From assembly GCF_001652585.1 (NCBI RefSeq), contig NZ_LWLG01000005.1, forward strand, positions 30,001 through 62,000: a stretch of DNA of 32,000 nucleotides. Direction: 5' to 3'. This stretch comes from Thermosulfurimonas dismutans (GTDB lineage Bacteria; Desulfobacterota; Thermodesulfobacteria; Thermodesulfobacteriales; Thermodesulfobacteriaceae). The notes beneath the pieces were generated by a model. It did not search any database, was not told the origin of the DNA, and saw only the letters and a list, made by a program, of their open reading frames with translations. Below, in pieces: positions 12,337-32,000 of this stretch. Every line of letters begins with the position of its first letter. Within the stretch, counting starts at the first letter, position 1. Both the position numbers and the translations under genes were made by a program.

Positions 12337-12351
12337 AGTCCCCACCCCGTT

Positions 12352-14343: not shown

Positions 14344-14348
14344 GGCCC

Positions 14349-15166: not shown

Positions 15167-15169
15167 GGT

Positions 15170-15706
15170 CTAAACCCCCTCGGCCTTCCTCTTGGGAGCC
15201 GGAAGCATCTTCTCCGGTATGCCTCGCGGCCTCCAGAAAGGATTGAAATAAGGCCTCTTCTGGGTCACGATAAATTCATCCCAATTCTTCAGGAGTCTCT
15301 CACGATCAAAATAAAGATCTTCCCGCGTATAACCCACATATTCATAAAATTCTGTAAGAACAATAGCATTTACCGGACAAACTTCTTCACAATAACCACA
15401 ATAAACACAACGAAGGGCCTCAATCTCGTATTTGGTAACCACCCTCCTCTTGGTCTCAGGATCTCTTTCGGTCTCGATGTAAATACACTGGGAGGGACAG
15501 ACCTTGGCACACCGCATACACCCGATACAACGATCTCTTCCAGTTTCGGGATCCCTAACCAGGGCGTGGCGCCCCCGGAAACCCGGGGCCACCGGTTTAC
15601 GTTCCTCCGGATACTGGACCGTGACCGGACGGCTAAAAAGTTTCTTAAGGGTAAGGGCCAAACCCTTGGCAATTTCTGTTAAAAAGATTGTTTTAGTAAG
15701 ACTCAT
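15170..15706 (-). CDS. nuoI: NADH-quinone oxidoreductase subunit I (2x[4Fe-4S])
   Basis: Motifs CIGCMRCAKVCP and CVYCGYCEEVCP, plus the NuoI N-terminal pattern (TVQYPEERKPVAPGFRGRHAL). Confidence 0.92.
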   Translation of the reverse strand: MSLTKTIFLTEIAKGLALTLKKLFSRPVTVQYPEERKPVAPGFRGRHALVRDPETGRDRCIGCMRCAKVCPSQCIYIETERDPETKRRVVTKYEIEALRCVYCGYCEEVCPVNAIVLTEFYEYVGYTREDLYFDRERLLKNWDEFIVTQKRPYFNPFWRPRGIPEKMLPAPKRKAEGV

Positions 15707-15717
15707 CCTTCGTCTCC

Positions 15718-16707: not shown

Positions 16708-16716
16708 GCCCTCCTC

Positions 16717-17946: not shown

Positions 17947-17949
17947 ACC

Positions 17950-18498
17950 CTACCCCTCCCTGACCTTACGGTCTCCCCATTCATAACGGCATAATTCCCT
18001 AGCCTTCGCCCGGACTTTGTCATATTCCGGCCATTCTTCTTCTGGCTGTAAAGCATAGTCCTTTCGGAGAGGATAACCCTTCCAGTCTTCGGGCATGAGG
18101 ATCCGTCTGAGATCCGGATGTCCCTTAAACCGGATGCCAAACATGTCGTAACACTCTCGCTCAAACCAGTTGGCCACCTGCCAGATCTTGGTCACCGAGG
18201 GCACCCAAGGATCCTTCTCCGGAACCGGAACTTTTACCCGCAGAAATTCGCGTTTACCTATAGAATAGAGGTTATAGACCACCTCGAAACGCTCGGGCTT
18301 TTTACCCTTTCCCTTCCAACCCAGGTAATCTACCCCACCCAGGTCAGCCAGATGATCAAAACCCAGCTCATCATGAAGGAACTTCATAACCTCTAGGAGG
18401 TAATTACGATCTACATATACCATAGCTTGTCCGCAAGACGTCTCTTCTCCCAGAACCGCCTGCGGGAAACGCTCTTTAAGTTTGTCTAAGGCCTCCAT
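17950..18498 (-). CDS. nuoC: NADH-quinone oxidoreductase subunit C (30-kDa subunit)
   Basis: NuoC pattern: SVTKIWQVANWFERECYDMFGIRFKGHPDLRRILMPEDWKGYPLRKDY. The gene is separate from nuoD, not a CD fusion. Confidence 0.9.
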   Translation of the reverse strand: MEALDKLKERFPQAVLGEETSCGQAMVYVDRNYLLEVMKFLHDELGFDHLADLGGVDYLGWKGKGKKPERFEVVYNLYSIGKREFLRVKVPVPEKDPWVPSVTKIWQVANWFERECYDMFGIRFKGHPDLRRILMPEDWKGYPLRKDYALQPEEEWPEYDKVRAKARELCRYEWGDRKVREG

Positions 18499-18507
18499 AA
18501 GCTTCCC

Positions 18508-19023
18508 CTATCGCCAGAATCCCCAGTGTCCGGCCTCGCGCCGGATCTTCTCCTGAAGCTTCATAAGACCATATATGAGAGCCTCGGGCCTCGGAGGACA
18601 GCCCGGGATATAGACGTCTACCGGCAGAAACTCATCGCAGCCCTGAACGGTGGAATAAGTCCTAAAGACCCCCCCGGAACAAGCACAGCTCCCCATAGCA
18701 ATCACATAGCGGGGCTCAGGCATCTGATCATATACCCTCCTTACTATAGGGGCCATCTTCTTAGTAACCGTTCCGGCCACGATCAAGACGTCCGCTTGTC
18801 TGGGCGAGGCCCGAAAGATAATCCCAAAACGGTCAAGATCGTGGTGACTGGCCCCAGTAGCCATCATCTCGATAGCGCAGCAGGCCAACCCGAAGGTCAT
18901 GGGCCAGAGAGAACCGGTTCGAGCCCAGTTGATAAGCTTGTCTACAGGCGTGATAAAAGCCGGCGTTCCCGGAATGTGCCTTATATCCGGAGCCACTTCT
19001 ACCGTTTCCTTTTCTACTCCCAT
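18508..19023 (-). CDS. nuoB: NADH-quinone oxidoreductase subunit B (N2 cluster subunit)
   Basis: Motifs [18 protein letters not shown] and [11 protein letters not shown]. The ORF-track start at 19134 lies inside nuoA. ATG 19023 ([10 protein letters not shown]...) overlaps the nuoA stop (19014-19016) and gives a normal 171-aa NuoB. Confidence 0.9.
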
Positions 19024-19385
19024 CTGAAAGCCCCCCTGATCCAGGCGTAAAAGTAAGCCACCAGAAGCAAAGCGATAAAGATTACCATTTCGATGTAGGC
19101 CAGAGCCCCGATCTTTCCGAAGGAAACCGCCCAAGGATAGAGGAAAACCGCTTCCACATCAAAGACTACAAAAAGGATAGCAATAGCATAAAATTTGACC
19201 GAAAAGGGATGACGAGGTTCTCCTGAAGGCGGAAGACCGCATTCATATCTCTCGAGCTTTTCAGGATAGGGCCTCTTTAAGCCCAAAATCTGATTCACAA
19301 TGATCATGGAAAGCCCAATCACAAAAACTAAGATCGCCAAGATGAGAATAGGCAGATATTTACTGGCTAGCCCCAGCTCCCCCAC
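19014..19385 (-). CDS. nuoA: NADH-quinone oxidoreductase subunit A
   Basis: NuoA/ND3 pattern: [39 protein letters not shown]. It uses a GTG start at 19385, preceded by GGAGG (6-nt spacer) that lies inside the 3' end of the upstream ferredoxin gene. Confidence 0.88.
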
Positions 19386-19842
19386 CCTTGCCCTCCTTTT
19401 TGGGAGCAGTCTTTTTCTTCACTGCCTTTTTGGCTGGAGGTTTGACTTCCTTCACTGCTAGGGCCTCGTTCGGACAGGCCGAAACGCAGTAAGGCTTTTC
19501 CCCTCCGGCCACCCGATCTTTACAGAGATCACATTTGTTTATCTTCCCTGTATGAGGATTAAACCTCGGCACTCCCCACGGACAAGCATAAACACAATTC
19601 ACACAGCCTACGCAAAGATCGCTTATCACGACAACCACTTCATTTTCACGGCGCATAGCTCCGGTAGGACAGACCTCCGCACATTGAGGCCGCTTGCACT
19701 GCATACAGGAAAAATAGGCAAAAGCCTTTCCGACCTTAAGAATTTGACAGTTGGCTACCCCTTCGTGGGTCTCGGCACAGGCCGAAATACAAGAAAAACA
19801 ACCATCACATTTTTCATAATTATGTTCTACTGTGTACGGCAT
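19360..19842 (-). CDS. Four-cluster [4Fe-4S] ferredoxin-like protein (DmsB/NrfC/HybA-type fold) with a Lys-rich C-terminal tail; first gene of the nuo operon
   Basis: Four Cys groups are present: CDGCFSCISAC, CMQCKRPQCAEVCP, CVGCVNCVYACP and CDLCKDRVAGGEKPYCVSACP. The tail is [27 protein letters not shown]. The 3' end overlaps nuoA by 26 nt. ATG 19842 (MPYTV...) is preferred, because the TTG at 19878 coincides with a TTGACT -35-like hexamer. Confidence 0.8.
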   Translation of the reverse strand: MPYTVEHNYEKCDGCFSCISACAETHEGVANCQILKVGKAFAYFSCMQCKRPQCAEVCPTGAMRRENEVVVVISDLCVGCVNCVYACPWGVPRFNPHTGKINKCDLCKDRVAGGEKPYCVSACPNEALAVKEVKPPAKKAVKKKTAPKKEGKGGGAGASQ

Positions 19843-19908
19843 GGCCTTATTTATGCCTAAAACCGAAAATAAAGTCAAGCGTAAAGTTTTTTGATTGCTC
19901 AGCCTTGT

Positions 19909-20663: not shown

Positions 20664-20739
20664 TCGGTCGTAGTTTCTTATGATAAGAGAAGTTTCCAAA
20701 ATTTTAAAGAGGAGGGATGGGTATGGCCCGATTAAAGGG

Positions 20740-21972
20740 ATGGAGAATTGGATTTTTGGGATTTTTTGGGTTTTTATTCGTATTTTTTTGTCAGTTTCAA
20801 CGGTTCAGGCCAGGCCTTCCAAGTGTGAAGAATGTCACCAAAAGGTTACCCCTGGCATAGTCAAGGATTTCAACCGTTCTAAAATGGCTAAGAAACTTAC
20901 CTGTGCCACCTGCCATGGCAAGTCTCACATGAGCGAAAACGATACGGACAAGGCCAAATTGCCCACTATCGAGACCTGTAAGCGCTGTCATGCCAAGCAA
21001 GCCAAACAGTATATGTCCGGCAAGCACTTTCTGGGCTGGATAGCCATGAACGCTATGCCCACCACTCACATGCAGCCCAGTCCGGTAAACAAGGGACGCA
21101 AAGGTTGCGGTGGATGCCACTCTTTGGGAGCTACCAAGGAAGCCAAAAAAGATCCTTATTATCCCAAGTACGCTATGGACTGTCAGAACTGCCACACCCG
21201 GCACGCCTTCTCGGTGGAGGAGGCCCGGGAACCCGAGGCCTGCATGACCTGCCACATGGGGTTTGACCATCCACAGTGGGAGATGTGGTCTACCTCCAAG
21301 CACGGGGCGGCCTACGTGATCGACCGGCTGCTCGGGCGTCCCATTGAAGATCGTCGTGGGCCCCGTTGCCAGACCTGTCACATGCCAAACGGCGACCACC
21401 GGGTGATGACCGCCTGGGGATTCCTCGGCCTCCGGGTTCCCGAGGACGACAAGGAGTGGTGGAACTACCGGGTGACCATCCTCAAGGGACTCCATGTGCT
21501 CACTCCGGACGGCAAGTTCACCGAGCGGCTGGATGTAGTGAAGGCTGGGAAGGTAGTCCGTCTCACCAAGGAGGAATGGCAGGCCGAAAGGGATCGCATG
21601 ATAAAGGTCTGCACGCAGTGTCACAACATCAACTTCGTTAAGGAGCAGCTCCAGCAGGCCGACATGATGCTCAAGGAGGCGGACAAGATCTTTGCCGAGG
21701 CCATCGAGATCGTGGCCGATCTGGCCCGGGATGGCATTATTAAACATGACGACGGCAATCCCTATCCTGATCTCCTGAGGTTCTATGAAACCCCTTACGA
21801 GATCGAGCAGAAGCTCTACCTCATGTTCATGGAATACCGCATGAGGACCTTCCAGGGGGCCTTTCACATGAACCCGGATTATTCCCACTGGTATGGCTGG
21901 GCGGAGATGAAAAAGACTCTGGTCGAGATAAAAGAGCTGGCCAAGGAGATGAGGGAGAAGGCCGGGAAATAA
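20740..21972 (+). CDS. hao: Octahaem cytochrome c of the hydroxylamine oxidoreductase (HAO) family; short form without a C-terminal membrane anchor
   Basis: Eight CXXCH motifs are present: CEECH, CATCH, CKRCH, CGGCH, CQNCH, CMTCH, CQTCH, CTQCH. The block CQNCHTRHAFSVEEAREPEACMTCHMGFDHPQWEMWSTSKHG and CQTCHMPNGDHRVMTAWGFLGLR match my recollection of HAO-family conserved regions. The N-terminus is hydrophobic, with VQA|RP. The start is uncertain (20680, 20740, or a frame-shifted 20723; see findings). Confidence 0.65.
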   Translation: MENWIFGIFWVFIRIFLSVSTVQARPSKCEECHQKVTPGIVKDFNRSKMAKKLTCATCHGKSHMSENDTDKAKLPTIETCKRCHAKQAKQYMSGKHFLGWIAMNAMPTTHMQPSPVNKGRKGCGGCHSLGATKEAKKDPYYPKYAMDCQNCHTRHAFSVEEAREPEACMTCHMGFDHPQWEMWSTSKHGAAYVIDRLLGRPIEDRRGPRCQTCHMPNGDHRVMTAWGFLGLRVPEDDKEWWNYRVTILKGLHVLTPDGKFTERLDVVKAGKVVRLTKEEWQAERDRMIKVCTQCHNINFVKEQLQQADMMLKEADKIFAEAIEIVADLARDGIIKHDDGNPYPDLLRFYETPYEIEQKLYLMFMEYRMRTFQGAFHMNPDYSHWYGWAEMKKTLVEIKELAKEMREKAGK

Positions 21973-23534: not shown

Positions 23535-25859
23535 TCAAAAATTTATGATCCCTAAGGCCTTTCTCAGGCTCACCAGGGCGTCGCCGATGGTGATCTGGCC
23601 GTCAGGCTGAGGCGTTCCGTCCGCCCCAAGCGGCGCCACATCCGCATGACACCGGTCCTCCTCACTCGGCGTCTCAAGCCCCAGGGCGAACCTTAAGGTC
23701 ACCAGGGCGTCGCCGATATTCACCTGTCCGTCCCGTGACCCTAGTGGAGCCACATCTCCGTCGGGGGTACATTCTAGCCCGTTTTTGCACTCACCGGTAT
23801 AGGCCACATTTACTCCTGCAAGATGGGCCTCGCAAGCGTTGGCATAGGTGCGCCCATCGCATCCGCAAACCGGATCATATACTTGTATACAGGCCTCTGG
23901 AAAAGGAACACATATTCCTGAACCACCACAACCGTCCTTCCGCCAGCAGAATTCCCCTGTTCTGCAATCCTGATTCAGAAAACAACCTGAACTTACTTTT
24001 ATGGTAACTATCGCCGATTTGTCTACCGCGTTTTCCTCATCCCTGACCTCACAATAGGCTGCATATTCTCCGGCTTCGTAATAAACATGAGTAAAATTCC
24101 CGCTTTCGTTTTCCTCCACCTCTCCATCCCCGAAATACACCGCATATCTTTCTATCCTTCCATCCTCATCTCTAGCCCTGCATCCAAACTTTACCTCAAG
24201 CGGGAGTTTACCTTCTGTAGGTTTAACCGAAAATTCCAAAATCTCCGGAGGCCGGTTTACTGACTTCACCATAAGGTTAATAGGAGAGGAATAATCACTC
24301 CAGGCCCCTTTATCATCCTTTACCTTGCACTTCGCAGTATAATTGCCAGGAAATATATATGTATAAGTAGAAATTTCTTCCCCAGATCGGATGATCGTTC
24401 CGTTTCCAGTATCAATAGCATATTCCACTACTCGTCCATCTGGATCGTGTGCTCTGCAGGTAAAAATAACCGTAAGCGGGGCCGAACCAGAAGCAGGTTC
24501 TGCGCTAAAGGAATCGATCACCGGTGGTTGATTGGGAGGTAAAAACTCTCTGGTCATAGCCACATAGGGAGCAGTTCGTCGGATGGTCTCCGCATTGCGT
24601 GTCTGTAAATCCCCGATGGGAACATTATCTAAGATCTGGTATTTTGTAGAGATATGGTCAATAATTCGATTGTCAGAAAAATATGGTATAGTCGGAGAAC
24701 AATAAGACATGATCGTACCGTATCCGTCTCCGCAATATCCATAACTGAAATCATAAACAGTCTGACCAGTAGCATGTTCTCTATCATGGTTACATCCCAG
24801 GTTGTGCCCAACCTCATGTATCAGAGTTGTCTGGTCACAATAATAAATACCGGTGCTTCCCACCTCTACCAAGGCTCTAAATAGTTTCTTCCGGTAGTAC
24901 TCGAGATAAGGGGAAGTAAAAATGTCTTCAGTATCGGGGATAAAGGCCATTCCACAACTCTCGTCCGAAGAGGTAAATTTCCTAAAAAGAACCGCTACAT
25001 CAGCGCCAGTCTCTTCAAGCCATTGAGGAAGAGCCGCAAATTCCTCCGTACCTTCGAACATTTTGCCCAGTACCGCTTCCATATCTTCATCTTCCGAGGT
25101 CTCAACCTTCCTGTAACCCACCGGTCTTAGAGAGACGTTGGTTTCACTATTTTCTAGAACTACGTTGGCAAAGTCAAAGAGGTTCTCAAGAACGGCTACC
25201 ACTCCGTCCTTTCCGTGTTCGTCCTCAAGCCCCGGCGTATAGAGAGCGAGAACGTCTATGACTACCGATGATCCCCCGGAGGCCAGAACTGGAAGCCCCC
25301 CTTTTAACCTCGACTTCGAAACTGGCTTTGCATCCGTTTCCGGCCCTTTGGAGGGCGTCGGTCTTTCCGGTGGGGGGGGAGGAACCGCCGGCCGGTCGGG
25401 GAGCCGCTGTAAGCCAGTAGTCTCCACCAGTACACCGAAATTTTCTGTATCTATGGGTTTGATTCGAAAACTGCGTCTCCCTAACCGTAAAGTTCCGGCG
25501 AGCCTTCCTTTTACCACCGTGAGCACTATCGTTCCGCCGCGGTACTCACCTTCTACAATTCTCCCAATCCATTTGGCACTGTCTCCTTTGATCTTTACTC
25601 GCCTAGTAACCGCATAAAAACTCTGGCCTCTGATTTCAAATCTGACAGGATCTCCAGAATGAATGGTTTTTAAAAGTTCAATATTTATTTTTACCAGAGT
25701 TGACCCCGTTCCTACTTTATCTCTAATATTCTTAGGCATAGAAGAAAATGGAAGCGTAATAAGAAGAGGAGTGTCTTCACTCCAGACGGGAGTCTGAAGG
25801 CAAACCAAACTAACTAGACCAAACAAAACCCATCTGCATAAAATCCTGCTCATCAACAT
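23535..25859 (-). CDS. Secreted multidomain metzincin: signal peptide, reprolysin (M12B)-like Zn-protease, 2x PKD, Cys-rich Kazal-like domain, C-terminal dockerin-like module
   Basis: - Zinc site HEVGHNLGCNHD, with a downstream Met-turn candidate GTIMSY.
- Two PKD-like repeats (SGSAPLTVIFTCRAHDPDGRVVEYAIDTGNG..., EGKLPLEVKFGCRARDEDGRIERYAVYFGDG...).
- Kazal-like CIQVYDPVCGCDGRTYANACEAHLAGVNVAYTGEC.
- The C-terminal 78 aa are shared with two neighbouring genes.
- ATG 25859 (MLMSRILCRWVLFGLVSLVCLQTPVWS, GAGAGGGG SD) is preferred over the TTG at 25880. Confidence 0.8.
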   Translation of the reverse strand: MLMSRILCRWVLFGLVSLVCLQTPVWSEDTPLLITLPFSSMPKNIRDKVGTGSTLVKINIELLKTIHSGDPVRFEIRGQSFYAVTRRVKIKGDSAKWIGRIVEGEYRGGTIVLTVVKGRLAGTLRLGRRSFRIKPIDTENFGVLVETTGLQRLPDRPAVPPPPPERPTPSKGPETDAKPVSKSRLKGGLPVLASGGSSVVIDVLALYTPGLEDEHGKDGVVAVLENLFDFANVVLENSETNVSLRPVGYRKVETSEDEDMEAVLGKMFEGTEEFAALPQWLEETGADVAVLFRKFTSSDESCGMAFIPDTEDIFTSPYLEYYRKKLFRALVEVGSTGIYYCDQTTLIHEVGHNLGCNHDREHATGQTVYDFSYGYCGDGYGTIMSYCSPTIPYFSDNRIIDHISTKYQILDNVPIGDLQTRNAETIRRTAPYVAMTREFLPPNQPPVIDSFSAEPASGSAPLTVIFTCRAHDPDGRVVEYAIDTGNGTIIRSGEEISTYTYIFPGNYTAKCKVKDDKGAWSDYSSPINLMVKSVNRPPEILEFSVKPTEGKLPLEVKFGCRARDEDGRIERYAVYFGDGEVEENESGNFTHVYYEAGEYAAYCEVRDEENAVDKSAIVTIKVSSGCFLNQDCRTGEFCWRKDGCGGSGICVPFPEACIQVYDPVCGCDGRTYANACEAHLAGVNVAYTGECKNGLECTPDGDVAPLGSRDGQVNIGDALVTLRFALGLETPSEEDRCHADVAPLGADGTPQPDGQITIGDALVSLRKALGIINF
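23538..23771 (-). repeat. Dockerin-like module, copy 1 (C-terminal; 78 codons; two internally duplicated segments)
   Basis: CTPDGDVAPLGSRDGQVNIGDALVTLRFALGLETPSEEDRCHADVAPLGADGTPQPDGQITIGDALVSLRKALGIINF. The internal duplication shows at the DNA level: the 18-mer caccagggcgtcgccgat occurs at 23571-23588 and again at 23700-23717. Confidence 0.8.
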
Positions 25860-25896
25860 AGAACCCCTCTCATCATACAAGACTTCTTAACTAATC

Positions 25897-27114
25897 GAGA
25901 CCTTTGCAAAATCAGATTGACAATTTTATTTCTCATAATAAACTCACTTAAAAACTAAAGGAGTTGAGCATGTATAAGAAACAGCATACTCAACTCACTT
26001 TCGGGGAAAATATTCTTTACCAAAACCTCCCGGATGACCTCCTCCTAGAACTCGACCGCCTCATCAACTGGAAACCCTTCGAACGCATTCTCTCCAAACT
26101 CCATCCCTCCTCCGTAGGACGCCCAGCCTACGATCCCCTCCTCATGCTCAAAATCCTCATCATCCAGCAAATCTACGGTCACTCCGACCCCGAAATGGAA
26201 ATCATGCTCTACGGCAACCTCTTCTACCGCCGCTTCCTCGGCCTTTCCGCTACCGATCCCGTTCCCGACCACTCCACCATCCCCCGCTTCCGTAAAGATC
26301 TTAAGTCCATGAACCTCTACAGAACCTGCTTCAAAGAACTCAAACGCCAGCTTGCCGAAAAGGGTTACGAGCTTAAGTGCGGCAAAATCACTGACGCCCG
26401 TCTGGTCAAAGCCGCCCGAAACCCCGGAAAAGGAGACTCTGATGCCGCCTTTGCCAAAAAGGGAAACCAAACCATCTACGGCTACAAAGACCACATCGCC
26501 GTGGACCCTAAACATGAATTCGTGACCGAATTCGTTTGCACCCCGGCCAATGTCCACGACTCCCAGGTGATCGATGAGCTCCTTTCCGGTGATGAGACCG
26601 CCATCTTTGCCGACAAGGCCTACGACTCCAGGGCTCTCAAAAGGTGGTGTCGGGAAAAGGGCGTTTACTATGGGGTCCTGGCTAAAGGAACCAGAAACCG
26701 CAAGATAAGCTCCTCCCAGAAAAAGAGGAATCGGAAGCTTGGAGCTGTAAGGCGGAAGGTGGAGAAGGTCTTCGGTATCTTTAGCCTTCATCTTAATCGG
26801 GCAAAAGCCAGGTATGTGGGCCTTGCGGCCAATGAGATCCATCTTTTCCTTACGGTCTTCACCTACAATCTCCTCAGGCTCTGGTGGCACCTGCGAAGGA
26901 AAAGAAGCGTCGTAGCAGTTTGACGTCACGGAAGAAGGAGGAGAAATGTGCCTGAAATAAGGAAAGAAGGGAAAAAGAGGCCCACAGAGGCTTCCGAAAA
27001 GCCAATCAGAGTAAAAATCCGGGGTATTTTCTATATCGGCAAGACGAAAATTTGATGTCATGCTCATCTTAAACAGACAACATGGCCTAAATTTCAGAAT
27101 TTTTCAAAGGTCTC
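25897..27114 (+). mobile_element. IS5-family insertion sequence (1218 bp) with 16-bp terminal inverted repeats and a flanking direct repeat
   Basis: The left end is GAGACCTTTGCAAAAT (25897-25912). The reverse complement of the right end is GAGACCTTTGAAAAAT (27114-27099), a 15/16 match. The direct repeat TAATC flanks the element (25892-25896 and 27115-27119). It reads CTAATC if the terminal C is shared, and it contains a CTAA YTAR-type target. One transposase ORF lies inside. Confidence 0.85.
25970..26923 (+). CDS. IS5-family DDE transposase (N-terminal DUF772-like plus DDE_Tnp_1-like domain)
   Basis: The N-terminal pattern is GRPAYDPLLMLKILIIQQIYGHSDPEMEIML...DHSTIPRFR. The DDE region includes KITDARLV...YGYKDHIAVD...FADKAYDS...VEKVFG. 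ATG 25970 has an AAGGAG SD 7 nt upstream, whereas the ORF track starts at TTG 25964. Confidence 0.88.
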   Translation: MYKKQHTQLTFGENILYQNLPDDLLLELDRLINWKPFERILSKLHPSSVGRPAYDPLLMLKILIIQQIYGHSDPEMEIMLYGNLFYRRFLGLSATDPVPDHSTIPRFRKDLKSMNLYRTCFKELKRQLAEKGYELKCGKITDARLVKAARNPGKGDSDAAFAKKGNQTIYGYKDHIAVDPKHEFVTEFVCTPANVHDSQVIDELLSGDETAIFADKAYDSRALKRWCREKGVYYGVLAKGTRNRKISSSQKKRNRKLGAVRRKVEKVFGIFSLHLNRAKARYVGLAANEIHLFLTVFTYNLLRLWWHLRRKRSVVAV

Positions 27115-27705
27115 TAATCGTCCTCGTCTTCTCTTCCCTTTTCGTTTCCTTCTTTTTTATATCCATGGGGACCGGACCCATCTGGTATGGAGGTATGGCA
27201 TACCAGACACGACCCGCTACCTAAAGGTTTGGCCTTTCCTTGAAGATTAATGACCTGCTCATTATCACGGTCGAGTTTGGAAGGCCACCAGGCATGGGGA
27301 GAATAATGACAAGTGGCACAATAAATACCGTGATGCCCCTTAGCATTGCGGTATAAAGTCGTCCCTGTATCGATCTCCTGCCCCCGGTGACAATCAGCAC
27401 ACTTCGGCTCCTCCAGCCAAGGCCTACGTCCGTTACGGAGACTTTCAGCCATTTCTACAAGTGTTCCGTGACACTTTTCGCAATCCTGCATGCCCTCAAG
27501 CTCCGTCCGCAAACACTTTGTCACCGGTCCGGGATGACAGTCGTAACAACCAGGCTGAGGATTCACCTGAGCGTGTTTGCCATGCATAGCCAAGGAAAGA
27601 TTGGGAAGCCCCGGAATTCCGGAAATTCCAGCTTCCTTAAACACCGGATCTTCATGACAATTTTGACAGAGAACAGGCCGGTTATTGAAAAGATCAGTGC
27701 CCTCC
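27114..27705 (-). pseudogene. 3' fragment of the IS-split beta-helix/dockerin/multihaem cytochrome gene (six CXXCH motifs)
   Basis: The native sequence resumes at ...EG-TDLFNNRPVLCQNCHED. It carries CQNCH, CYDCH, CEKCH, CADCH, CATCH and CLVCH. The first 38 codons of ORF 27114..27818 (27706-27818) are IS256-derived, and there is no native start. It is in the same frame as the 5' fragment once the IS plus one TSD copy (1269 nt = 423 codons) is removed. Confidence 0.85.
27698..27705. repeat. 8-bp target-site duplication TGCCCTCC (left copy) of the IS256-family element
   Basis: Identical to 28967-28974 and directly abutting the inverted-repeat termini. Confidence 0.9.
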
Positions 27706-28966
27706 GGGACTGTCCACCCTTCTGTGTAAATCCCATTATAGCCTATCCTCAAATAAAATTGAGAGCTGGGCGTAAATTGAAGGCCAATCCTTAATAGGGC
27801 GGCGCCATTTCCTCTCAAGCTCCATGGCCGCCATGTATAGACACTTAAGCAGAGACTCCTCTGTCGGAAAAACCCTCCTGCCCGCTGTTGCCTTCCGAAA
27901 TTTGCTGTTTACGCTCTCTATGATGTTCGTGGTATACATTACCCGCCTTATTTCAACCGGATACCTCAAAAACGTCGTTAAAGCCTCCCAATTCGCCTCC
28001 CAGCTCTTTACCACATGGGGATACTTTTCGCCCCATTTGGCCGAAAAATCTTCAAATTCTCTTTCGGCTACCTCAAGTGTAGGGGCCCCGTAAACCTTCT
28101 TGAGATCTCTGGCCAGCTCCCTTTTGTCTTTCCAGGAAACATATCTCAAAGAATTCCTGATCTGGTGTACCACACACCTCTGAATATCCGCCTTCGGAAA
28201 GGTTGCCTCTATAGCTTTATCTAACCCTGTTAACCCATCCACGCTGAAAATGAAGACATCTCTTACCCCCCGAGCCTTAAGATCATTGAGCACTCCTAGC
28301 CAAAATCGGCTAGACTCTGTCCCGTCTATCCAAAAGCCCAAAATTTCCTTGTAGCCTTCAAGATCTATACTTATAACTACATAGATGGCTTTCTTCCTTA
28401 CTTGGCCATCCTCTCGGATGTTGTAGAAAATGCAATCGATCCAAAGTAGAAAATATTTTTCTTTGAGTGGACGGGCTTGCCATTCCTTGATCTTGGGCAG
28501 AATCCGGTCTGTGATATTGGAAATCAGAGAAGGGCTTACGTCAAAACCATACATATCAGAAAGAATCTCCTGGATATCTCGGGTACTCATACCCTTGGCA
28601 TAAAGGGCTGTTATCTGATTTTCTATCTCATCAAGCATGGTTTGACGCTTCCTGATAAGTTGGGGCTCAAATTCCCCTTTCCGGTCTCTGGGAACTAGGA
28701 GCTCAATAGGGCCACAGGTGGTTTTCACGCTCTTGGGAGTGTAGCCGTTCCGATAATTGTCCGAATCAGAGCGCTCGTACTTCTTGTAGCCTAAGAACTC
28801 TTCCAGTTCGGCTTCCAGAACCTCTCCCAGGAATTCTCGAGTAAACTCTTTGATGGTGGCTTGTACTTCCTGTGGCTTAGTGGCCTTCTGAATTTTGCTC
28901 ATGGTGTCCACCCTCCTTTTTGTGATTTGGTCATTTTACAATTTCCACAATTGGGTGGACACTCCC
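27706..28966 (-). mobile_element. IS256-family insertion sequence (1261 bp) inserted in a coding sequence
   Basis: The termini are GGGACTGTCCACCCTTCTGTGTAAAT (27706-27731) and, as reverse complement, GGGAGTGTCCACCCAATTGTGGAAAT (28966-28941). They match at 20/26 positions, with 13/14 at the tips. A perfect 8-bp TSD flanks the element, which is typical of IS256. It has a single mutator-type transposase ORF. Confidence 0.92.
27736..28902 (-). CDS. IS256-family (Mutator-type) transposase
   Basis: Typical family blocks are present: RNGYTPKSVKTTCGPIELLVPRDRKGEFEPQLI, ALYAKGMSTRDIQEIL, LWIDCIFYNIRE, DGLTGLDKAIEATFPKADIQRCVVHQIRN, TTNIIESVNSKFRK. The C-terminus is ...WPSIYAQLSILFEDRL. ATG 28902 has a GGAGG SD 9 nt upstream, whereas the ORF track starts at GTG 28911. 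Confidence 0.93.
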   Translation of the reverse strand: MSKIQKATKPQEVQATIKEFTREFLGEVLEAELEEFLGYKKYERSDSDNYRNGYTPKSVKTTCGPIELLVPRDRKGEFEPQLIRKRQTMLDEIENQITALYAKGMSTRDIQEILSDMYGFDVSPSLISNITDRILPKIKEWQARPLKEKYFLLWIDCIFYNIREDGQVRKKAIYVVISIDLEGYKEILGFWIDGTESSRFWLGVLNDLKARGVRDVFIFSVDGLTGLDKAIEATFPKADIQRCVVHQIRNSLRYVSWKDKRELARDLKKVYGAPTLEVAEREFEDFSAKWGEKYPHVVKSWEANWEALTTFLRYPVEIRRVMYTTNIIESVNSKFRKATAGRRVFPTEESLLKCLYMAAMELERKWRRPIKDWPSIYAQLSILFEDRL

Positions 28967-31478
28967 TGCCCTCCTCTTCGTCGTGTTTAAGAAGAATATT
29001 TCTCATAGTATCCGCACCGCCACTCCTTTCATGACATTTCTCACAGTGCATCTCATGAGACACCGGTACCACCGTCCTGGTGGTGGCCAGTACTTCTCCC
29101 GTAGCCTCATCCTTTACTACTACCTCTACTAGCGGATAAGGATTGAAATTCCCATTATTGTCAAAAGGCGTTACCGGCAGCCCTTCCGCTAAGAAACGAT
29201 CCCCCCGGAGCTCCATGACGCCCTGAAGGGTCTTTCCCGTAAGTCCGGTACATAACTGAACATCCATCCAAAAAAATTTCTTAACATAGTCCCAAAAATT
29301 AGTTCCCCGACAAGAGGTGTTCTCCAAGAGACGATACTCCACCCAAATTCCCTGGGTAACTATCTCCGGATGTTCCCCTTTTCTTATGACCTGAGCTATC
29401 AGGGTGTTGAAAGGAGGGAGAATGGACAGTTGAGAATAATCCTGATTGATACAATGCATACCCGGATCGTTATAGGCGATCACCACATACTCTCCGGCCT
29501 TACTACCACCTTCACCTCCGCCGTTTCCTCCGTTATCGGTGTTTCCTCCGTTCCAACTCACCAATCCCAGGGCCTTCCTCAATATCACCAACGCATCGCC
29601 GATGGTAATCTTGCCGTCCGGTTGCGGCTGGCCGTTTGCTCTGAGGGGGGCCACATCCGCATGGCACCGGTCCTCCTCACTTGGCGTCTCAAGCCCCAGG
29701 GCAAAACGCAGAGCCACCAGGGCGTCTCCGATATTGACCTCCCCGTCGCGGTTCCCCAGCGGAGCCACGTCACCATCGAGCGTGCAAATTTCTCCTTCTC
29801 GAAATTCATAAGCTCCAAGATCTACGCCCTGGTCCTGAGGTCTAGAAATCCCTTCCAGATCCCTTTCCGGAATCCTTCCCTCTATAGCGCCCACGGGTAA
29901 CCCTCTATCTATGGCGGGACTTCCTTCCTGAAGATGGGCGTCGAGGCGATTGATATCTTCTTCCTCTCGCAAGAGAGGATCTTCCTGAATATTGTGGGAT
30001 CCGATCTCCATCTGTATATCCGCTCTATAGATAAGATTATAGTCAATGGTTTCAGCCCGGGTACGGCCCTCTGGATCTCCGTCTCCGATAAGATCGGGCC
30101 AGTCTTCCCGGCCCGTGACGGTGACATTCCGATAACCGAAAAAGATATTGTTGAAGAGATGGAGGCGCTCCGAACCGTTACACGGTGGTGCCTCGGGAAA
30201 ATCGTGGGTATGACAATAGACTTCTATCAGGGCCCACCCTTCGGAGACTACGGTGGTATTGATGATATAACTCTGATCCCCGGGATTCATGGAAACGGAG
30301 ATGGCCGCTCCTCCGGCCCGGCAGGCGTCTCCACTGGCCACATCTCCCATCTCTTGAGCAAAATCTTTATTGGTAAAATAGTTACAGTTACTGATAGCTA
30401 TAGAATTAACTATATACACCGGACCTCCCACCTTGAGCTGATTACCGGCGTTCCCGTAAGCCTGAACCCGACGGAGGGTGATGAAACTATCCGGATGGTT
30501 CACTCCCACGTAAAGAAGGTCCAGCCCGTCGGAGGTATTGTAGCGAAAGAGGCTGTCTTCGAAAATCCAGGTTCCTCCTGATCGGGCTACTCCTACTCCA
30601 TCTCCGTAACCCCCATGGGACTGCGCCCAGCAATGTTCGAGCCTCTCCTCGGGATAGGTCTCCACGCAACCGTTCCATTCCACAATGAAATTTTTGAAAT
30701 ACAATTGCCCCTGATTAGAAGAGGGGGCACCGTCCAGGTCGCCGTTCCATCCTGACCAGCCGTTTCCCGCGATCCTTACCCTCTCCACCTGCCAGTTTTC
30801 AAGACGCCCGGCTTTTATTCCGTCTGCTCCCAGACCATGGATATTCAAGTCCCTCAAAGTCACGTTGGAGGAATCTGAAGCGTAAATACCAGCGTAAGCC
30901 CAGTCGCCAAAAGGAGAATTTTCATACTCGCAGGCCACCGAAGAATGGCCACCGTTGTGAAAGTAGGCACAACTTTCATGGTCTGTAATCTCCAGACAGG
31001 CTATTTCTACGTTGGAAGACCCCCGCAGATTAAGTATCTGCCAGACCCTTCCCGTCCCCCACAATTCCGGAGGATTGGTGCAGCCCGAATCCCAGCCGTA
31101 GCCTACGATTCTGGTGGGATGTTCCGCATCCGGCCCTGAGGGTACCGGAGGAAGAGCGCAGTCGTAAGCAAACTCCGGATAACACCAGCCCTCGGTGTTC
31201 GGCGCCTTGTAACCGATCACATAGCTTCCTGCGTGAATGACCAGGGTATCCCCTCCCCGAATCCTCCAGCGGGCCTCGCCGTTTTCGATCTTGAGGGCCC
31301 AGAAGGGATGAGACCAGGCACAGGGCTGTCCTTTGCCCTCTCCCGGATAAGGAGCATCCACCAGCCCGGTGCACTGTTCCGCGGTCCCTCCGTCCGGACG
31401 AACGTAGTAAGTAGCCGCCTGTAACCCATCCAGGTTTAAAAAAAGGAGAGCCATCAGGCCAAGAACCACTCCAAGCAT
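28899..31478 (-). CDS. 5' fragment (truncated by IS256 insertion) of a secreted protein: signal peptide, right-handed beta-helix domain, internal dockerin-like module, Gly-rich linker, start of a multihaem cytochrome c domain
   Basis: - Signal peptide MLGVVLGLMALLFLNLDGLQA|ATYYVRPDGG.
- Beta-helix-type repeats (NVTLRDLNIHG, ...VERVRIAGNGWSGWNGD...).
- Dockerin-like module at 29553-29786.
- Linker NGGNTDNGGNGGGEGGSKAG.
- First haem motif CEKCHE.
Native coding ends at 28967. The last 22 codons (RECPPNCGNCKMTKSQKGGWTP*) are read from the IS right end. Confidence 0.85.
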   Translation of the reverse strand: MLGVVLGLMALLFLNLDGLQAATYYVRPDGGTAEQCTGLVDAPYPGEGKGQPCAWSHPFWALKIENGEARWRIRGGDTLVIHAGSYVIGYKAPNTEGWCYPEFAYDCALPPVPSGPDAEHPTRIVGYGWDSGCTNPPELWGTGRVWQILNLRGSSNVEIACLEITDHESCAYFHNGGHSSVACEYENSPFGDWAYAGIYASDSSNVTLRDLNIHGLGADGIKAGRLENWQVERVRIAGNGWSGWNGDLDGAPSSNQGQLYFKNFIVEWNGCVETYPEERLEHCWAQSHGGYGDGVGVARSGGTWIFEDSLFRYNTSDGLDLLYVGVNHPDSFITLRRVQAYGNAGNQLKVGGPVYIVNSIAISNCNYFTNKDFAQEMGDVASGDACRAGGAAISVSMNPGDQSYIINTTVVSEGWALIEVYCHTHDFPEAPPCNGSERLHLFNNIFFGYRNVTVTGREDWPDLIGDGDPEGRTRAETIDYNLIYRADIQMEIGSHNIQEDPLLREEEDINRLDAHLQEGSPAIDRGLPVGAIEGRIPERDLEGISRPQDQGVDLGAYEFREGEICTLDGDVAPLGNRDGEVNIGDALVALRFALGLETPSEEDRCHADVAPLRANGQPQPDGKITIGDALVILRKALGLVSWNGGNTDNGGNGGGEGGSKAGEYVVIAYNDPGMHCINQDYSQLSILPPFNTLIAQVIRKGEHPEIVTQGIWVEYRLLENTSCRGTNFWDYVKKFFWMDVQLCTGLTGKTLQGVMELRGDRFLAEGLPVTPFDNNGNFNPYPLVEVVVKDEATGEVLATTRTVVPVSHEMHCEKCHERSGGADTMRNILLKHDEEEGRECPPNCGNCKMTKSQKGGWTP
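28967..28974. repeat. 8-bp target-site duplication TGCCCTCC (right copy) of the IS256-family element
   Basis: Identical to 27698-27705. Confidence 0.9.
29553..29786 (-). repeat. Dockerin-like module, copy 2 (internal position)
   Basis: CTLDGDVAPLGNRDGEVNIGDALVALRFALGLETPSEEDRCHADVAPLRANGQPQPDGKITIGDALVILRKALGLVSW. It shares a 28-nt identical run with copy 3 (29713-29740 = 31691-31718). Confidence 0.8.
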
Positions 31479-31500
31479 TTCTCCCCCTTTTTGATCCCCA

Positions 31501-31522
31501 CCGGGCGGGCTATCCCGCCCGG
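31501..31522 (-). other. GC-rich intercistronic hairpin between the third dockerin-module gene and the beta-helix gene
   Basis: CCGGGCGGG-ctat-CCCGCCCGG gives a 9-bp stem in the 49-nt spacer. The transcribed strand has no U-tract after it (GGUGGGGAUCAAAAAGGGGGAGAA-AUG follows), so it is more likely an mRNA stability or processing element than a full terminator. Confidence 0.35.
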
Positions 31523-31527
31523 TCCTT

Positions 31528-32000
31528 TTAAAAGTTCACTAACCTTAAAGCCTTCCTCAAAATCACCAGGGCATCGCCGATGGTGATCCGGCCATCGGGA
31601 TGGGGTTTCCCATCCTCCCCTAGAGGAGCCACGTCCGCATGGCACTTATCCTCATCGCTTGGTGTCTCAAGCCCTAAAGCAAACCGCAGGGCCACCAGGG
31701 CGTCTCCGATATTGACCTGACCATCACGGTTCCCCAGCGGAGCTACGTCGCCGTCAGGAGTGCAGGTAGCTTTTCTTCTGGCAAGCACAAAGACCGGATC
31801 AATCTCTCCGTTCTGGTCGCAGCACAGAGTGACCCTCAAGGTATGTTCGTTTAGCTGTTCATAGGACACTTCCCGCCAATCGGGAAGCTTATAAAGATGG
31901 AATTCTCCGGTTATTTCCCTCTCTACAGTTACCTCGAAATCGTAACATTGTCCGGGATTTCCGGTGGCGGTAACAATAAAGGCCTCGGATTCTTGAAGAT
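31528..32000 (-). CDS. Secreted/unknown protein with C-terminal dockerin-like module; 5' end outside the window
   Basis: The ORF-track start (31869) is an internal GTG. The same frame stays open to base 32000 (LQESEAFIVTATGNPGQCYDFEVTVEREITGEFHLYKLPDWREVSYEQL...). The C-terminal 78 aa form the shared module. Confidence 0.75.
   Translation of the reverse strand, partial: LQESEAFIVTATGNPGQCYDFEVTVEREITGEFHLYKLPDWREVSYEQLNEHTLRVTLCCDQNGEIDPVFVLARRKATCTPDGDVAPLGNRDGQVNIGDALVALRFALGLETPSDEDKCHADVAPLGEDGKPHPDGRITIGDALVILRKALRLVNF
31531..31764 (-). repeat. Dockerin-like module, copy 3 (C-terminal)
   Basis: CTPDGDVAPLGNRDGQVNIGDALVALRFALGLETPSDEDKCHADVAPLGEDGKPHPDGRITIGDALVILRKALRLVNF. Confidence 0.8.

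What the first reader, a model, noticed from the sequence alone, without database searches (positions are those of the whole stretch)
23535..32000. Three co-oriented secreted-protein genes share a 78-aa dockerin-like module: a candidate cell-surface assembly/anchoring system
Three consecutive minus-strand genes carry almost the same 78-aa module: 31528..>32000, 31478..27114 (split by an IS) and 25859..23535.

The module opens with a Cys and consists of two related segments:
- GDVAPLG-x-RDGQVNIGDALVxLRFALGL
- ADVAPLGxDGxPxPDGxITIGDALVxLRKALG
The segments are joined by ETPSEEDRCH. Each segment is a D/N/G-rich loop followed by an amphipathic helix. That is the logic of the duplicated Ca-binding F-hand of type I dockerins, although the loop carries an APLG insertion.

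With both IS elements removed, the genes are separated by only 49 and 31 nt, so they probably formed one operon. The cargo domains are very different (metzincin protease, beta-helix, multihaem cytochrome). That mixture is how cohesin-dockerin and other module-directed surface-display systems look.

No cohesin-like partner is visible in this window. The organism appears to be a CO2-fixing anaerobe rather than a cellulolytic one, so the function of such a system here is open.
Basis: partly seen in the sequence, partly recalled or inferred. Interest (0 to 1): 0.8.

Follow-up and report, generated by a model that had tools for sequence, protein, structure and literature searches.

The report
Dockerin tags on secreted Thermosulfurimonas proteins
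Three neighbouring secreted-protein genes of the vent bacterium Thermosulfurimonas dismutans carry a real, slightly unusual dockerin "plug", and a protein with two matching cohesin "sockets" is encoded just outside the window, so this is a non-cellulosomal cohesin-dockerin system of a known kind that has not been studied in this organism.

Summary
Three 78-aa modules lie at 23538-23771, 29553-29786 and 31531-31764 on the minus strand. They are 83-85% identical in protein, and dN/dS of 0.04-0.09 marks them as old paralogs under strong constraint.

- The module is a type I-like dockerin. Pfam Dockerin_1 is the only consistent hit, although the window copies score below threshold. The best PDB profile hit is a dockerin. 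The top 20 Foldseek matches of the AlphaFold model are all dockerins.
- It differs from canonical dockerins by insertions of 4 and 9 residues after position 2 of the two Ca loops.
- It sits at the C-terminus, at the N-terminus or internally, on signal-peptide proteins, so it is not a C-terminal sorting signal.

The organism is Thermosulfurimonas dismutans. At least five more dockerin genes exist, four of them on the same contig. One of those four, OAQ20917.1, has two cohesin domains plus the same dockerin.

Relatives occur mainly in a few Thermodesulfobacteriota MAGs, which also carry cohesins. Gene 2 fuses beta-helix, dockerin and a 7-haem cytochrome, a combination not seen among the 240 homologues checked, but an IS256 element splits it here.

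Binding, Ca dependence and surface location are untested. Verdict: a new member of a known kind, of moderate interest.

The parts
23535..25859 (-). Gene 1 (T. dismutans OAQ20903.1, 774 aa). Order of parts: signal peptide, Mep72/reprolysin-like metzincin, 2 PKD domains, Kazal-like Cys-rich region, C-terminal dockerin.
23538..23771 (-). Dockerin module copy 1 (78 aa, C-terminal).
25898..27113 (+). IS5-family insertion sequence (transposase 25964-26923). It lies in the 31-nt spacer between gene 2 and gene 1 and is flanked by the 7-bp direct repeat CTAATCG. The gene 2 stop codon TAG lies inside that repeat, so the natural stop is kept.
27114..27697 (-). Gene 2, 3' part: six of the seven CXXCH haem motifs of the multihaem cytochrome domain.
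27706..28966 (-). IS256-family insertion sequence (transposase 27736-28911) that splits gene 2. The 8-bp target duplication GGAGGGCA lies at 27698-27705 and 28967-28974.
28967..31478 (-). Gene 2, 5' part (annotated as OAQ20907.1, 859 aa, with an IS-derived tail). Order of parts: signal peptide, right-handed beta-helix, choice-of-anchor Q domain (aa 512-559), dockerin (aa 565-642), Gly-rich linker, start of the cytochrome family domain with the first CXXCH.
29553..29786 (-). Dockerin module copy 2 (internal in gene 2).
31479..31527 (-). 49-nt spacer between gene 3 and gene 2. It holds a 10-bp GC hairpin without a U tract, followed by a GGGGGAG ribosome-binding site.
31528..32000 (-). 3' end of gene 3 (OAQ20908.1, 1275 aa in full). 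Order of parts: signal peptide, repeat-rich region, PKD, C-terminal dockerin.
31531..31764 (-). Dockerin module copy 3 (C-terminal).

Best explanation
The 78-aa module is a type I-like dockerin.

**Shown.**
- It consists of two EF-hand-like Ca-binding loops, each followed by a helix, joined by a short linker helix.
- It differs from canonical dockerins by insertions after loop position 2: APLG (4 residues) in the first loop and APL[G/D]xxGxP (9 residues) in the second.
- It is attached to unrelated exported proteins of Thermosulfurimonas dismutans: a metzincin protease, a beta-helix protein fused to a 7-haem cytochrome, and a PKD/repeat protein.
- A cohesin-bearing protein, OAQ20917.1, is encoded on the same contig. 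It has two cohesins plus its own dockerin.

**Inferred.**
- The dockerin most likely plugs these proteins non-covalently, in a Ca-dependent way, into cohesin domains, chiefly those of OAQ20917.1.
- OAQ20917.1 could both collect cargo and dock onto, or polymerise with, other copies of itself.
- The result would be an extracellular or cell-surface multiprotein assembly that is not aimed at cellulose.
- The three window genes are the edge of a larger island, and they were close-packed before two IS insertions. One of those insertions now splits the cytochrome fusion gene.
For: **Dockerin identity.**
- Dockerin_1 is the only consistent Pfam hit. It matches all 16 family members, best E 2.6e-5, and one relative reaches 24.4 bits against a cut-off of 22.9.
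- The best PDB profile hit is dockerin 4dh2_B. It aligns N3, D5, G6, N9 and D12 and treats APLG as an insertion.
- The metagenomic family member P0035, the most divergent row of the alignment, has a canonical first loop without the insertion.
- The AlphaFold model has pLDDT 72 and three helices. Its top 20 Foldseek PDB hits are all dockerins taken from cohesin complexes.

**Constraint.** dN/dS is 0.04-0.09.

**Export and position.**
- Genes 1 and 2 and all T. dismutans paralogs have signal peptides. Most carriers elsewhere do too.
- The module position is variable.

**Cargo.** Diversity is typical of dockerin systems. Across 56 carriers the domains include PKD, beta-helix, Ig-like, serpin, subtilase, thermolysin, propeller and GH99.

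**Partner.**
- OAQ20917.1 has Pfam Cohesin at 33.3 bits against a cut-off of 24.1.
- Its best PDB hit is the Archaeoglobus fulgidus cohesin 2xdh_A, E 2e-7.
- A second cohesin domain is found, and related cohesins occur in the MAG loci next to or fused with the dockerin.
- A profile built without the Pfam-positive domain still hits the cohesins 2xdh_A (5e-6) and 5lxv_A (1e-3).

**Island.** OAQ20903, 20907, 20908, 20911, 20914, 20917 and 20919 all lie on one 97.9-kb contig.
Against: - The window copies score below the Pfam gathering threshold (16.8-18.2 bits against 22.9), and only the first segment is matched.
- The inserted loop residues are the low-confidence part of the model (residues 8-13, pLDDT below 50). 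Ca coordination is therefore inferred from alignment only.
- No binding, Ca-dependence or localisation data exist.
- The cohesin gene is outside the window. Its distance is inferred from accession order.
- No membrane or cell-wall anchor (lipobox, SLH, sortase signal) was found on the cohesin protein, so 'cell surface' is not shown.
- Gene 2 is split by the IS256 element in this strain.
- A single-sequence structure prediction of the cohesin-cohesin-dockerin stretch failed (pLDDT 33).
Confidence: 0.72

Rival explanations
1. The module has the dockerin fold but does not work through cohesins. It might bind another ligand, such as exopolysaccharide, an outer-membrane component or a mineral or sulfur surface. 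It might instead be only a Ca-dependent stabilising or folding domain for proteins exported into hot, Ca-rich seawater.
For: - Many non-cellulosomal dockerin carriers have no assigned partner, and the function outside cellulosomes is stated to be unknown (PMC5244752, PMC9012536).
- Cohesin genes appear to be far fewer than dockerin genes. Only one cohesin protein was identified among the T. dismutans proteins seen.
- Most MAG dockerin loci have no cohesin nearby.
- The loop insertions could create a different surface.
Against: - Cohesins co-occur with this particular dockerin subfamily repeatedly. This is seen in the same protein or the neighbouring gene, in T. dismutans and in independent MAGs and metagenome proteins. 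That pattern is hard to explain without interaction.
- A few-cohesins-to-many-dockerins ratio is normal for cohesin-dockerin systems (established knowledge of cellulosomes).
- The two helices are near-duplicates (LVALRFALGL and LVILRKALGI), as in cohesin-binding dockerins.
Confidence: 0.2
2. The module is a secretion or sorting signal that is recognised by an export or attachment machinery and then cleaved off, in the manner of a T9SS C-terminal domain or PEP-CTERM.
For: - 70 of 115 strong family hits have the module at the extreme C-terminus, usually ending in an aromatic residue.
- In gene 2 it follows a 'choice-of-anchor Q' domain. Homologues of that domain carry varied C-terminal parts.
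Against: - The module also lies directly after the signal peptide (22 of 115) or internally (23 of 115), including in gene 2.
- No NCBIfam sorting-domain model matches.
- The fold and profile hits are dockerins.
- It has no transmembrane or basic tail.
Confidence: 0.04
3. The three copies are a by-product of recent duplication or gene conversion, perhaps promoted by the IS elements, and have no shared function.
For: IS elements and repeated modules lie in one region.
Against: - Synonymous sites are saturated while the protein is 83-85% conserved (dN/dS 0.04-0.09).
- The flanking cargo is unrelated.
- The same module is conserved at about 75% identity in distant genomes.
Confidence: 0.02

Closest known systems
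Type I dockerins of cellulosomal enzymes (for example Clostridium thermocellum and Acetivibrio cellulolyticus; PDB 4dh2_B, 2ccl_B, 1ohz_B, 5nrm_B, 4uyq_B)
   Same: - Duplicated loop-helix (F-hand) segments joined by a short helix, with three helices in the model.
- Conserved D/N/D/N/D ligand positions.
- The two segments are near-symmetric.
- Carried on exported proteins with diverse catalytic domains, including serpins and proteases.
- These dockerins are the best fold and profile matches.
   Different: - Insertions of 4 and 9 residues after position 2 of the two Ca loops.
- A Cys pair in the T. dismutans subgroup.
- The window copies score below the Pfam threshold.
- The host is a diderm, thermophilic, CO2-fixing sulfur disproportionator.
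- No cellulases or CBMs were seen in the domain scans of carriers, which listed only the commonest families. The cargo includes a multihaem cytochrome.
Archaeoglobus fulgidus non-cellulosomal cohesin-dockerin pair (cohesin structure 2xdh_A; Bayer 1999 and Haimovitz 2008, as cited in PMC9012536)
   Same: - It is the best solved-structure match to the T. dismutans and MAG cohesins (E 2e-7 and 5e-6).
- It comes from a non-cellulolytic, thermophilic, sulfur-cycling host.
- It has few cohesins and no large scaffoldin.
   Different: - Archaeal versus bacterial host.
- Whether the A. fulgidus dockerin has the APLG-type loop insertion was not checked here.
- T. dismutans has a larger set: at least 8 dockerin genes and a 2-cohesin adaptor.
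Cohesin/dockerin 'adhesin' gene sets of ANME archaea and their syntrophic sulfate-reducing partners (HotSeep-1 AMM40420-AMM40427, Seep-SRB2, Seep-SRB1g; PMC9012536, PMC10553843)
   Same: - Clustered cohesin and dockerin genes in anaerobic, sulfur-cycling Thermodesulfobacteriota and archaea from vents and seeps.
- Cargo is variable.
- The proposed role is in the extracellular matrix and cell-cell contact. A link to multihaem cytochrome adhesion has been speculated (PMC5244752).
   Different: - Those sets are reported as absent from non-syntrophic relatives, whereas T. dismutans is a free-living pure culture.
- Candidatus Desulfofervidus was not recovered by the pattern scan for this subfamily, so the modules are probably a different dockerin lineage.
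- The direct dockerin-cytochrome fusion is not described there.
Ruminococcus flavefaciens atypical dockerins (ScaA dockerin; PMC3821032)
   Same: Precedent for functional dockerins with an atypical sequence around the second F-hand Ca-binding loop.
   Different: The sequence is different, the context is cellulosomal, and the insertions are not homologous as far as tested.
SLH-anchored members of the same 7-haem cytochrome family (for example P0370)
   Same: The cytochrome family found in gene 2 is fused in other lineages to a surface-anchoring module such as SLH, BACON-like or Ig-like domains. This fits an extracytoplasmic, tethered role.
   Different: The tether is covalently fused SLH or Ig-like domains rather than a dockerin.

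Membership tests
Dockerin (type I-like; Pfam PF00404 Dockerin_1) | Score at or above the curated Pfam threshold (22.9 bits) | tested here: inconclusive
   Window copies score 16.8-18.2 bits, below threshold, and match on the first segment only. All 16 family members hit Dockerin_1 and no other family consistently, best E 2.6e-5. The close relative P0185 reaches 24.4 bits. RefSeq names two T. dismutans paralogs 'dockerin type I repeat-containing protein'.
Dockerin (type I-like; Pfam PF00404 Dockerin_1) | Two tandem segments of about 22 residues, each a 12-residue EF-hand-like loop followed by a helix | tested here: met
   The family alignment shows GDVAPLGNRDGxVNVGDALVALRFALGL and GDVAPLDxxGxPxPDGxITVGDALVILRKALGI. 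The model has helices 19-29, 37-42 and 62-72. Both loops carry an insertion after position 2.
Dockerin (type I-like; Pfam PF00404 Dockerin_1) | Ca-ligand residues at loop positions 1, 3, 5, 9 and 12 | tested here: met
   The HMMER alignment to 4dh2_B pairs N3, D5, G6, N9 and D12. The metagenomic family member P0035 has the uninterrupted loop D-L-T-Q-D-G-V-V-D-V-A-D. In segment 2 position 3 is N/S/D/Q before P-D-G. Actual Ca binding was not tested.
Dockerin (type I-like; Pfam PF00404 Dockerin_1) | Dockerin three-dimensional fold | tested here: met
   Foldseek against the PDB: ranks 1-20 are all dockerin chains, ranks 1-14 with probability 0.89-1.00, TMq 0.41-0.64, TMt 0.38-0.78. The model has moderate confidence (pLDDT 72).
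Dockerin (type I-like; Pfam PF00404 Dockerin_1) | Specific Ca-dependent binding to a cohesin | not testable with these tools
   This needs recombinant proteins or a multimer prediction. Only the presence of candidate cohesins was shown.
Cohesin-dockerin assembly system (cellulosome-like) | Cohesin modules encoded in the same genome | tested here: met
   OAQ20917.1 (P0191) of T. dismutans, on the same 97.9-kb contig, has Pfam Cohesin at 33.3 bits against a cut-off of 24.1 at aa 1224-1313. A second cohesin lies at about aa 1353-1484. The PDB hit to 2xdh_A has E 2e-7.
Cohesin-dockerin assembly system (cellulosome-like) | Many different exported cargo proteins share one dockerin type | tested here: met
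   There are 3 carriers in the window and at least 5 more in T. dismutans. One MAG has 23 loci and another 13. Cargo is diverse.
Cohesin-dockerin assembly system (cellulosome-like) | Anchor of the scaffold to the cell (SLH, sortase signal, lipobox or membrane segment) | tested here: not met
   OAQ20917.1 has only a signal peptide, and no anchor was detected by Pfam or by eye. The rest of the genome could not be scanned.
Cohesin-dockerin assembly system (cellulosome-like) | Plant-cell-wall-degrading cargo and a CBM-bearing scaffoldin (cellulosome in the strict sense) | tested here: not met
   No cellulase or CBM was found in the domain scans of window genes and relatives. Only one GH99 was seen, in a relative. 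This is therefore not a cellulosome.
C-terminal protein-sorting domains (T9SS CTD, PEP-CTERM and similar) | Obligatory position at the extreme C-terminus and a match to a sorting-domain model | tested here: not met
   45 of 115 strong hits are N-terminal or internal. Gene 2 carries the module internally. No NCBIfam sorting model matches.

The most novel reading that the evidence does not exclude
The T. dismutans island may encode a modular extracellular 'redox-and-protease' complex. A two-cohesin adaptor (OAQ20917.1) would tether a multihaem cytochrome to the cell exterior through a loop-expanded dockerin, together with proteases, CAP, PKD and beta-helix proteins. That would be a cohesin-dockerin scaffold used for extracellular electron transfer or sulfur or mineral contact, not for polysaccharide breakdown. 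It would sit in a cultivable thermophile that could serve as a model for the unexplained cohesin-dockerin sets of ANME and sulfate-reducer consortia.
Probability: 0.2. Interest if true: 0.75.

Novelty: new member of a known kind. Interest (0 to 1): 0.45.

Why it matters
The role of cohesin-dockerin pairs outside cellulosomes has been open since they were found in all three domains of life. It is now discussed for methane-oxidising consortia that cannot be grown in pure culture.

T. dismutans is a pure-culture thermophile. It has a compact island of at least seven dockerin genes, one of which (OAQ20917.1) also carries two cohesins.
- Specific binding pairs can be tested with a handful of thermostable recombinant modules.
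- The dockerin-cytochrome fusion gives a concrete example of the speculated link between these modules and extracellular cytochromes.
- The loop-expanded dockerin subfamily is under-detected by Pfam, because the window copies score below threshold. Dockerin counts in Thermodesulfobacteriota are therefore probably underestimated.

Tried and rejected
- **Contig look-ups.** Exact look-ups for the window's TPI, for P0037 and for P0196 found nothing on record. The DNA beyond the window edge could not be read, and the T. dismutans genome did not appear in the genome-contig scan.
- **First cohesin search.** phmmer with a recalled CipA cohesin, validated against 1aoh_A at E 3e-88, found nothing in the related loci.
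- **Neighbour scans.**
  - A summary Pfam scan of 81 secreted neighbours showed no cohesin among the 25 families listed. That output lists only the commonest families, so it is not conclusive.
  - A Pfam scan of 20 chosen neighbours showed none either.
  - Cohesins were found only after the T. dismutans cohesin gave a suitable seed.
- **Histidine-kinase family.** A recurrent neighbour family turned out to be ordinary histidine kinases.
- **Tail-fibre-like family A4.** This secreted family flanks dockerin genes in one MAG, but it has no Pfam hit and is unlike cohesins by eye.
- **Lipoprotein family A6.** It lies next to the distant Geobacter-type dockerin proteins and looked cohesin-like by eye. 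It got no support: hhalign probability 0.25% and no PDB cohesin hit.
- **Structure of the cohesin region.** A single-sequence AlphaFold run of the cohesin-cohesin-dockerin stretch of OAQ20917.1 gave pLDDT 33, so it was not used.
- **Promoter and terminator scan.** Counts were no higher than in shuffled sequence, so the scan says nothing about the operon claim.
- **Single-sequence PDB search.** Searching the PDB with one module copy gave only noise.


Full report
**What is in the sequence**

Region 23535-32000 carries three co-oriented minus-strand genes and two insertion sequences. The only long repeat family in the region is a 229-nt unit present three times, at 23543-23771, 29558-29786 and 31536-31764. 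The copies are 76-78% identical in DNA. Translated, these are 78-aa modules at 23538-23771, 29553-29786 and 31531-31764 that are 83-85% identical.

Nei-Gojobori counts give pS of 0.63-0.72, which is saturated, against pN of 0.09-0.11. That puts dN/dS at about 0.04-0.09. The copies are therefore old paralogs held by purifying selection. They are neither a recent duplication nor a chance match.

**The IS elements and the original gene layout**

An IS256-family element spans 27706-28966 and has a perfect 8-bp target duplication, GGAGGGCA. Removing it, together with one copy of the duplication, joins 28967-31478 to 27114-27697. The result is a single in-frame gene of 1031 aa.

An IS5-family element spans 25898-27113 and is flanked by a 7-bp direct repeat. 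It sits in the spacer between gene 2 and gene 1. The TAG stop codon of gene 2 lies inside that repeat, so the natural stop is preserved.

The 49-nt spacer contains a stable 10-bp GC hairpin with no U tract on the coding strand. The promoter and terminator scan gave counts no higher than in shuffled sequence. Co-transcription is therefore plausible but not shown.

**What the carriers are**

- **Gene 1 (774 aa).** Signal peptide, Mep72/reprolysin-like metzincin, two PKD domains, a Kazal-like Cys-rich stretch, then the module at the C-terminus.
- **Gene 2 (1031 aa when restored).**
  - N-terminal half: signal peptide, right-handed beta-helix, a 'choice-of-anchor Q' domain at aa 512-559, then the module at aa 565-642.
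  - C-terminal half: a Gly-rich linker and a domain of about 370 aa with seven CXXCH motifs.
- **The 370-aa cytochrome part.** It belongs to a widespread family of stand-alone, secreted multihaem cytochromes.
  - The closest member is 76% identical, and the Dissulfuribacter thermophilus protein is 67% identical.
  - Some members carry SLH, BACON-like or Ig-like additions.
  - None of the 120 best cytochrome homologues, and none of the other beta-helix homologues among the 120 listed, carries the module. The beta-helix-dockerin-cytochrome fusion is therefore unusual.
- **Gene 3.** It runs off the window. Its visible part is 100% identical to a 1275-aa protein that has a signal peptide, a PKD domain and the module at the C-terminus.

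**Source organism**

The three proteins are OAQ20903.1, OAQ20907.1 and OAQ20908.1 of Thermosulfurimonas dismutans, on a 97,894-bp contig. The window GC content of about 50% matches the published 50.1% (PMC4911364). So do its acetyl-CoA synthase/CO dehydrogenase genes. T. dismutans is a thermophilic, autotrophic, sulfur-disproportionating isolate. Neither the genome paper nor a later comparative paper mentions dockerins or cohesins.

**What the module is**

- **Pfam.** Dockerin_1 hits the window copies only below threshold (16.8-18.2 bits against 22.9) and only over the first segment. It is nevertheless the only family hit by all 16 members of a family alignment, with a best E of 2.6e-5. A close relative reaches 24.4 bits.
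- **PDB profile.** A profile of the family finds dockerin 4dh2_B as its best PDB hit. The alignment pairs N3, D5, G6, N9 and D12 and treats APLG as a 4-residue insertion.
- **A canonical family member.** P0035, a metagenomic protein and the most divergent row of the alignment, has an uninterrupted canonical first loop, D-L-T-Q-D-G-V-V-D-V-A-D. Counting back from D12 in the second segment places a 9-residue insertion, APL[G/D]xxGxP, at the same point. That leaves N/S/D/Q at position 3 (my reading of the alignment).
- **Fold.** An AlphaFold model built on the 16-sequence alignment has pLDDT 72 and three helices, at 19-29, 37-42 and 62-72. Confidence is low only at residues 8-13, which are the insertion. 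Foldseek against the PDB returns dockerin chains at ranks 1-20, ranks 1-14 with probability 0.89-1.00 and TM scores up to 0.78.

The module is a dockerin with expanded Ca loops. A disulfide between them is possible but was not tested.

**Distribution and behaviour of the module**

An exhaustive profile search of 1.84 billion representative proteins gives:

| E-value cut-off | Clusters |
|---|---|
| 1e-30 or lower | 82 |
| 1e-10 or lower | 637 |
| 1e-3 or lower | 2425 |

The weaker hits grade into general dockerins.

A scan of one genome per species found 63 loci.
- They are concentrated in a few Thermodesulfobacteriota MAGs: 23 loci in MAG071 and 13 in M55B121.
- The isolate Desulfothermus okinawensis has one locus.
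- More distant versions occur in Geobacter and Desulfuromonadaceae.
- No other Thermosulfurimonas or Thermodesulfatator species appeared. That hints at horizontal acquisition, but this is an inference from a pattern-based scan.

Among 115 strong hits the module is C-terminal in 70, directly after the signal peptide in 22 and internal in 23. Carriers are overwhelmingly signal-peptide proteins.

Across 56 carriers the cargo includes PKD, beta-helix, Ig-like domains, serpins, subtilases, thermolysins, propellers, sortilin-like domains, NosD and GH99. Variable position and the absence of any NCBIfam sorting-domain match rule out a cleaved C-terminal sorting signal.

**The partner**

No ORF in the window has a cohesin. 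Early searches in the related loci also failed.

Looking up the T. dismutans-type hits by exact sequence revealed more dockerin proteins:
- On the same contig: OAQ20911 (CAP domain), OAQ20914/TDIS_1041, OAQ20917 and OAQ20919 (fn3/BNR).
- On another contig: OAQ19878/TDIS_2008, which has an N-terminal dockerin.

RefSeq or UniProt already names two of them as dockerin proteins.

A Pfam scan of these proteins gave the key result. OAQ20917.1 (1567 aa) has a Cohesin domain at aa 1224-1313, scoring 33.3 bits against a cut-off of 24.1. The same dockerin sits at aa 1487-1564. The stretch hits the Archaeoglobus fulgidus cohesin 2xdh_A at E 2e-7, and Acetivibrio cellulolyticus cohesins at about 6e-4. It also contains a second, more divergent cohesin at about aa 1353-1484.

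A local profile seeded on these domains finds cohesins in several other places:
- immediately before the dockerin in L008 and L025;
- together with the dockerin in L047 and in several metagenome proteins, which have the dockerin followed by a cohesin;
- in L001:14115-16193, a dockerin-less, Big_1-rich secreted protein that lies next to three dockerin genes in MAG071.

A profile of these cohesins that leaves out the Pfam-positive domain still hits 2xdh_A (5e-6) and the Ruminococcus flavefaciens cohesin 5lxv_A (1e-3). Cohesins therefore travel with this dockerin subfamily, and T. dismutans has a two-cohesin adaptor in the same island. The window covers only one edge of that island.

**How it most likely works**

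Shown:
- dockerin identity;
- export signals on the carriers;
- shared use of one module by unrelated cargo;
- purifying selection on the module;
- cohesins on the same contig in T. dismutans (the distance is inferred from accession order), and in the same protein or the adjacent gene in relatives.

Inferred:
- Exported cargo proteins dock through the module, in a Ca-dependent way, onto the cohesins of OAQ20917.1.
- Because OAQ20917.1 carries its own dockerin, it could chain to itself or to a further cohesin.
- The near-identity of the two helices (LVALRFALGL and LVILRKALGI) would allow a dual binding mode, as in type I dockerins.

Not found: any membrane or wall anchor on the cohesin protein. 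'Cell surface' as opposed to 'free extracellular complex' therefore remains open.

The IS256 insertion splits the cytochrome fusion in this strain. At least that component is dispensable in culture.

**Comparison with what is known, and novelty**

Non-cellulosomal cohesin-dockerin modules are known in all three domains of life (Peer 2009, cited in PMC9012536). They have been shown to bind in A. fulgidus. They are described as abundant in ANME archaea and as clustered adhesin genes in syntrophic sulfate reducers, where they were reported absent from non-syntrophic relatives (PMC9012536, PMC10553843). A role in cytochrome adhesion has been speculated (PMC5244752). Atypical dockerin loops have a precedent in R. 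flavefaciens ScaA (PMC3821032).

This finding is therefore a new member of a known kind. Its notable features are:
- a loop-expanded dockerin subfamily that Pfam under-detects;
- a compact island in a free-living, cultivable thermophile;
- a direct dockerin-multihaem-cytochrome fusion.

It is not a cellulosome: no cellulases, CBMs or SLH anchors were seen.

**Verdict**

The novelty is moderate and the interest score is 0.45.

Noticed in passing
window 3824-7918 (+): A single reading frame is interrupted only by TGA at 6278-6280, inside the motif NPARV*HGPS. This looks like the selenocysteine codon of a formate-dehydrogenase-type molybdopterin enzyme. The enzyme is fused N-terminally to 2Fe-2S, GltD-like flavoprotein and 4Fe-4S domains. 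It lies directly downstream of the acetyl-CoA synthase/CO dehydrogenase genes at 16-3735.
   Followed up: partly
window 9405-19385 (-): A nuo-type complex I gene row is present (N, M, L, J, I, H, D, C and B identified). No NuoE/F/G genes are visible in the window. A ferredoxin-like gene lies at 19360-19878.
   Followed up: no
window 20680-21972 (+): A membrane-anchored multihaem cytochrome of the PF13447 family lies between the complex I genes and the triose-phosphate isomerase gene (tpiA).
   Followed up: no
outside the window: T. dismutans OAQ20917.1 (P0191), same 97.9-kb contig: A 1567-aa secreted protein with InlB B-repeats, fn3 and PKD domains, two tandem cohesins (about aa 1219-1352 and 1353-1484) and the same dockerin at aa 1487-1564. 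It is the candidate adaptor for the window's dockerin proteins.
   Followed up: yes
L001:14115-16193 and L001:16264-17286 (MAG071, JAYEMW010000024.1): Two secreted proteins without a dockerin lie immediately downstream of three dockerin genes. The first has Big_1/invasin Ig-like domains and a C-terminal cohesin. The second is smaller and has a weaker cohesin-like domain.
   Followed up: partly
L001:7650-9698, L007:3174-5243, L007:5909-7765, L004:2488-3783, L026:2-895: A secreted, repeat-rich family with no Pfam match repeatedly flanks dockerin genes in MAG071 and in a Desulfobacteraceae MAG. By eye it looks tail-fibre-like. It has a conserved 'FKIDHPLDPENKYLSHSFVESP' C-terminal region.
   Followed up: partly
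L051:10222-11394, L052:4777-6078, L057:10213-11424, L058:10213-11424; L051:11394-12626: In Geobacter and Desulfuromonadaceae, the giant proteins with a distant version of the module are always followed by a conserved lipoprotein of unknown family (lipobox LAGCGGGGS). In L051 a secreted protein with an N-terminal cohesin follows that lipoprotein. This could be an outer-membrane anchoring arrangement.
   Followed up: partly
L065:5837-6136, L066:1457-1756, L067:1087-1386: A 99-aa ORF consists of little more than the dockerin and has no obvious signal peptide. It sits in the same housekeeping context (PlsB and DegP-like neighbours) on three independent metagenome contigs.
   Followed up: no
window 31479-31527 (-): The gene 3 to gene 2 spacer holds a 10-bp GC-rich hairpin (CCGGGCGGG-AUAG-CCCGCCCGG; the folded 66-nt region has -24.5 kcal/mol, z = -1.9). 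No U tract follows it. Its role (RNA stability, processing or weak termination) is unknown.
   Followed up: partly
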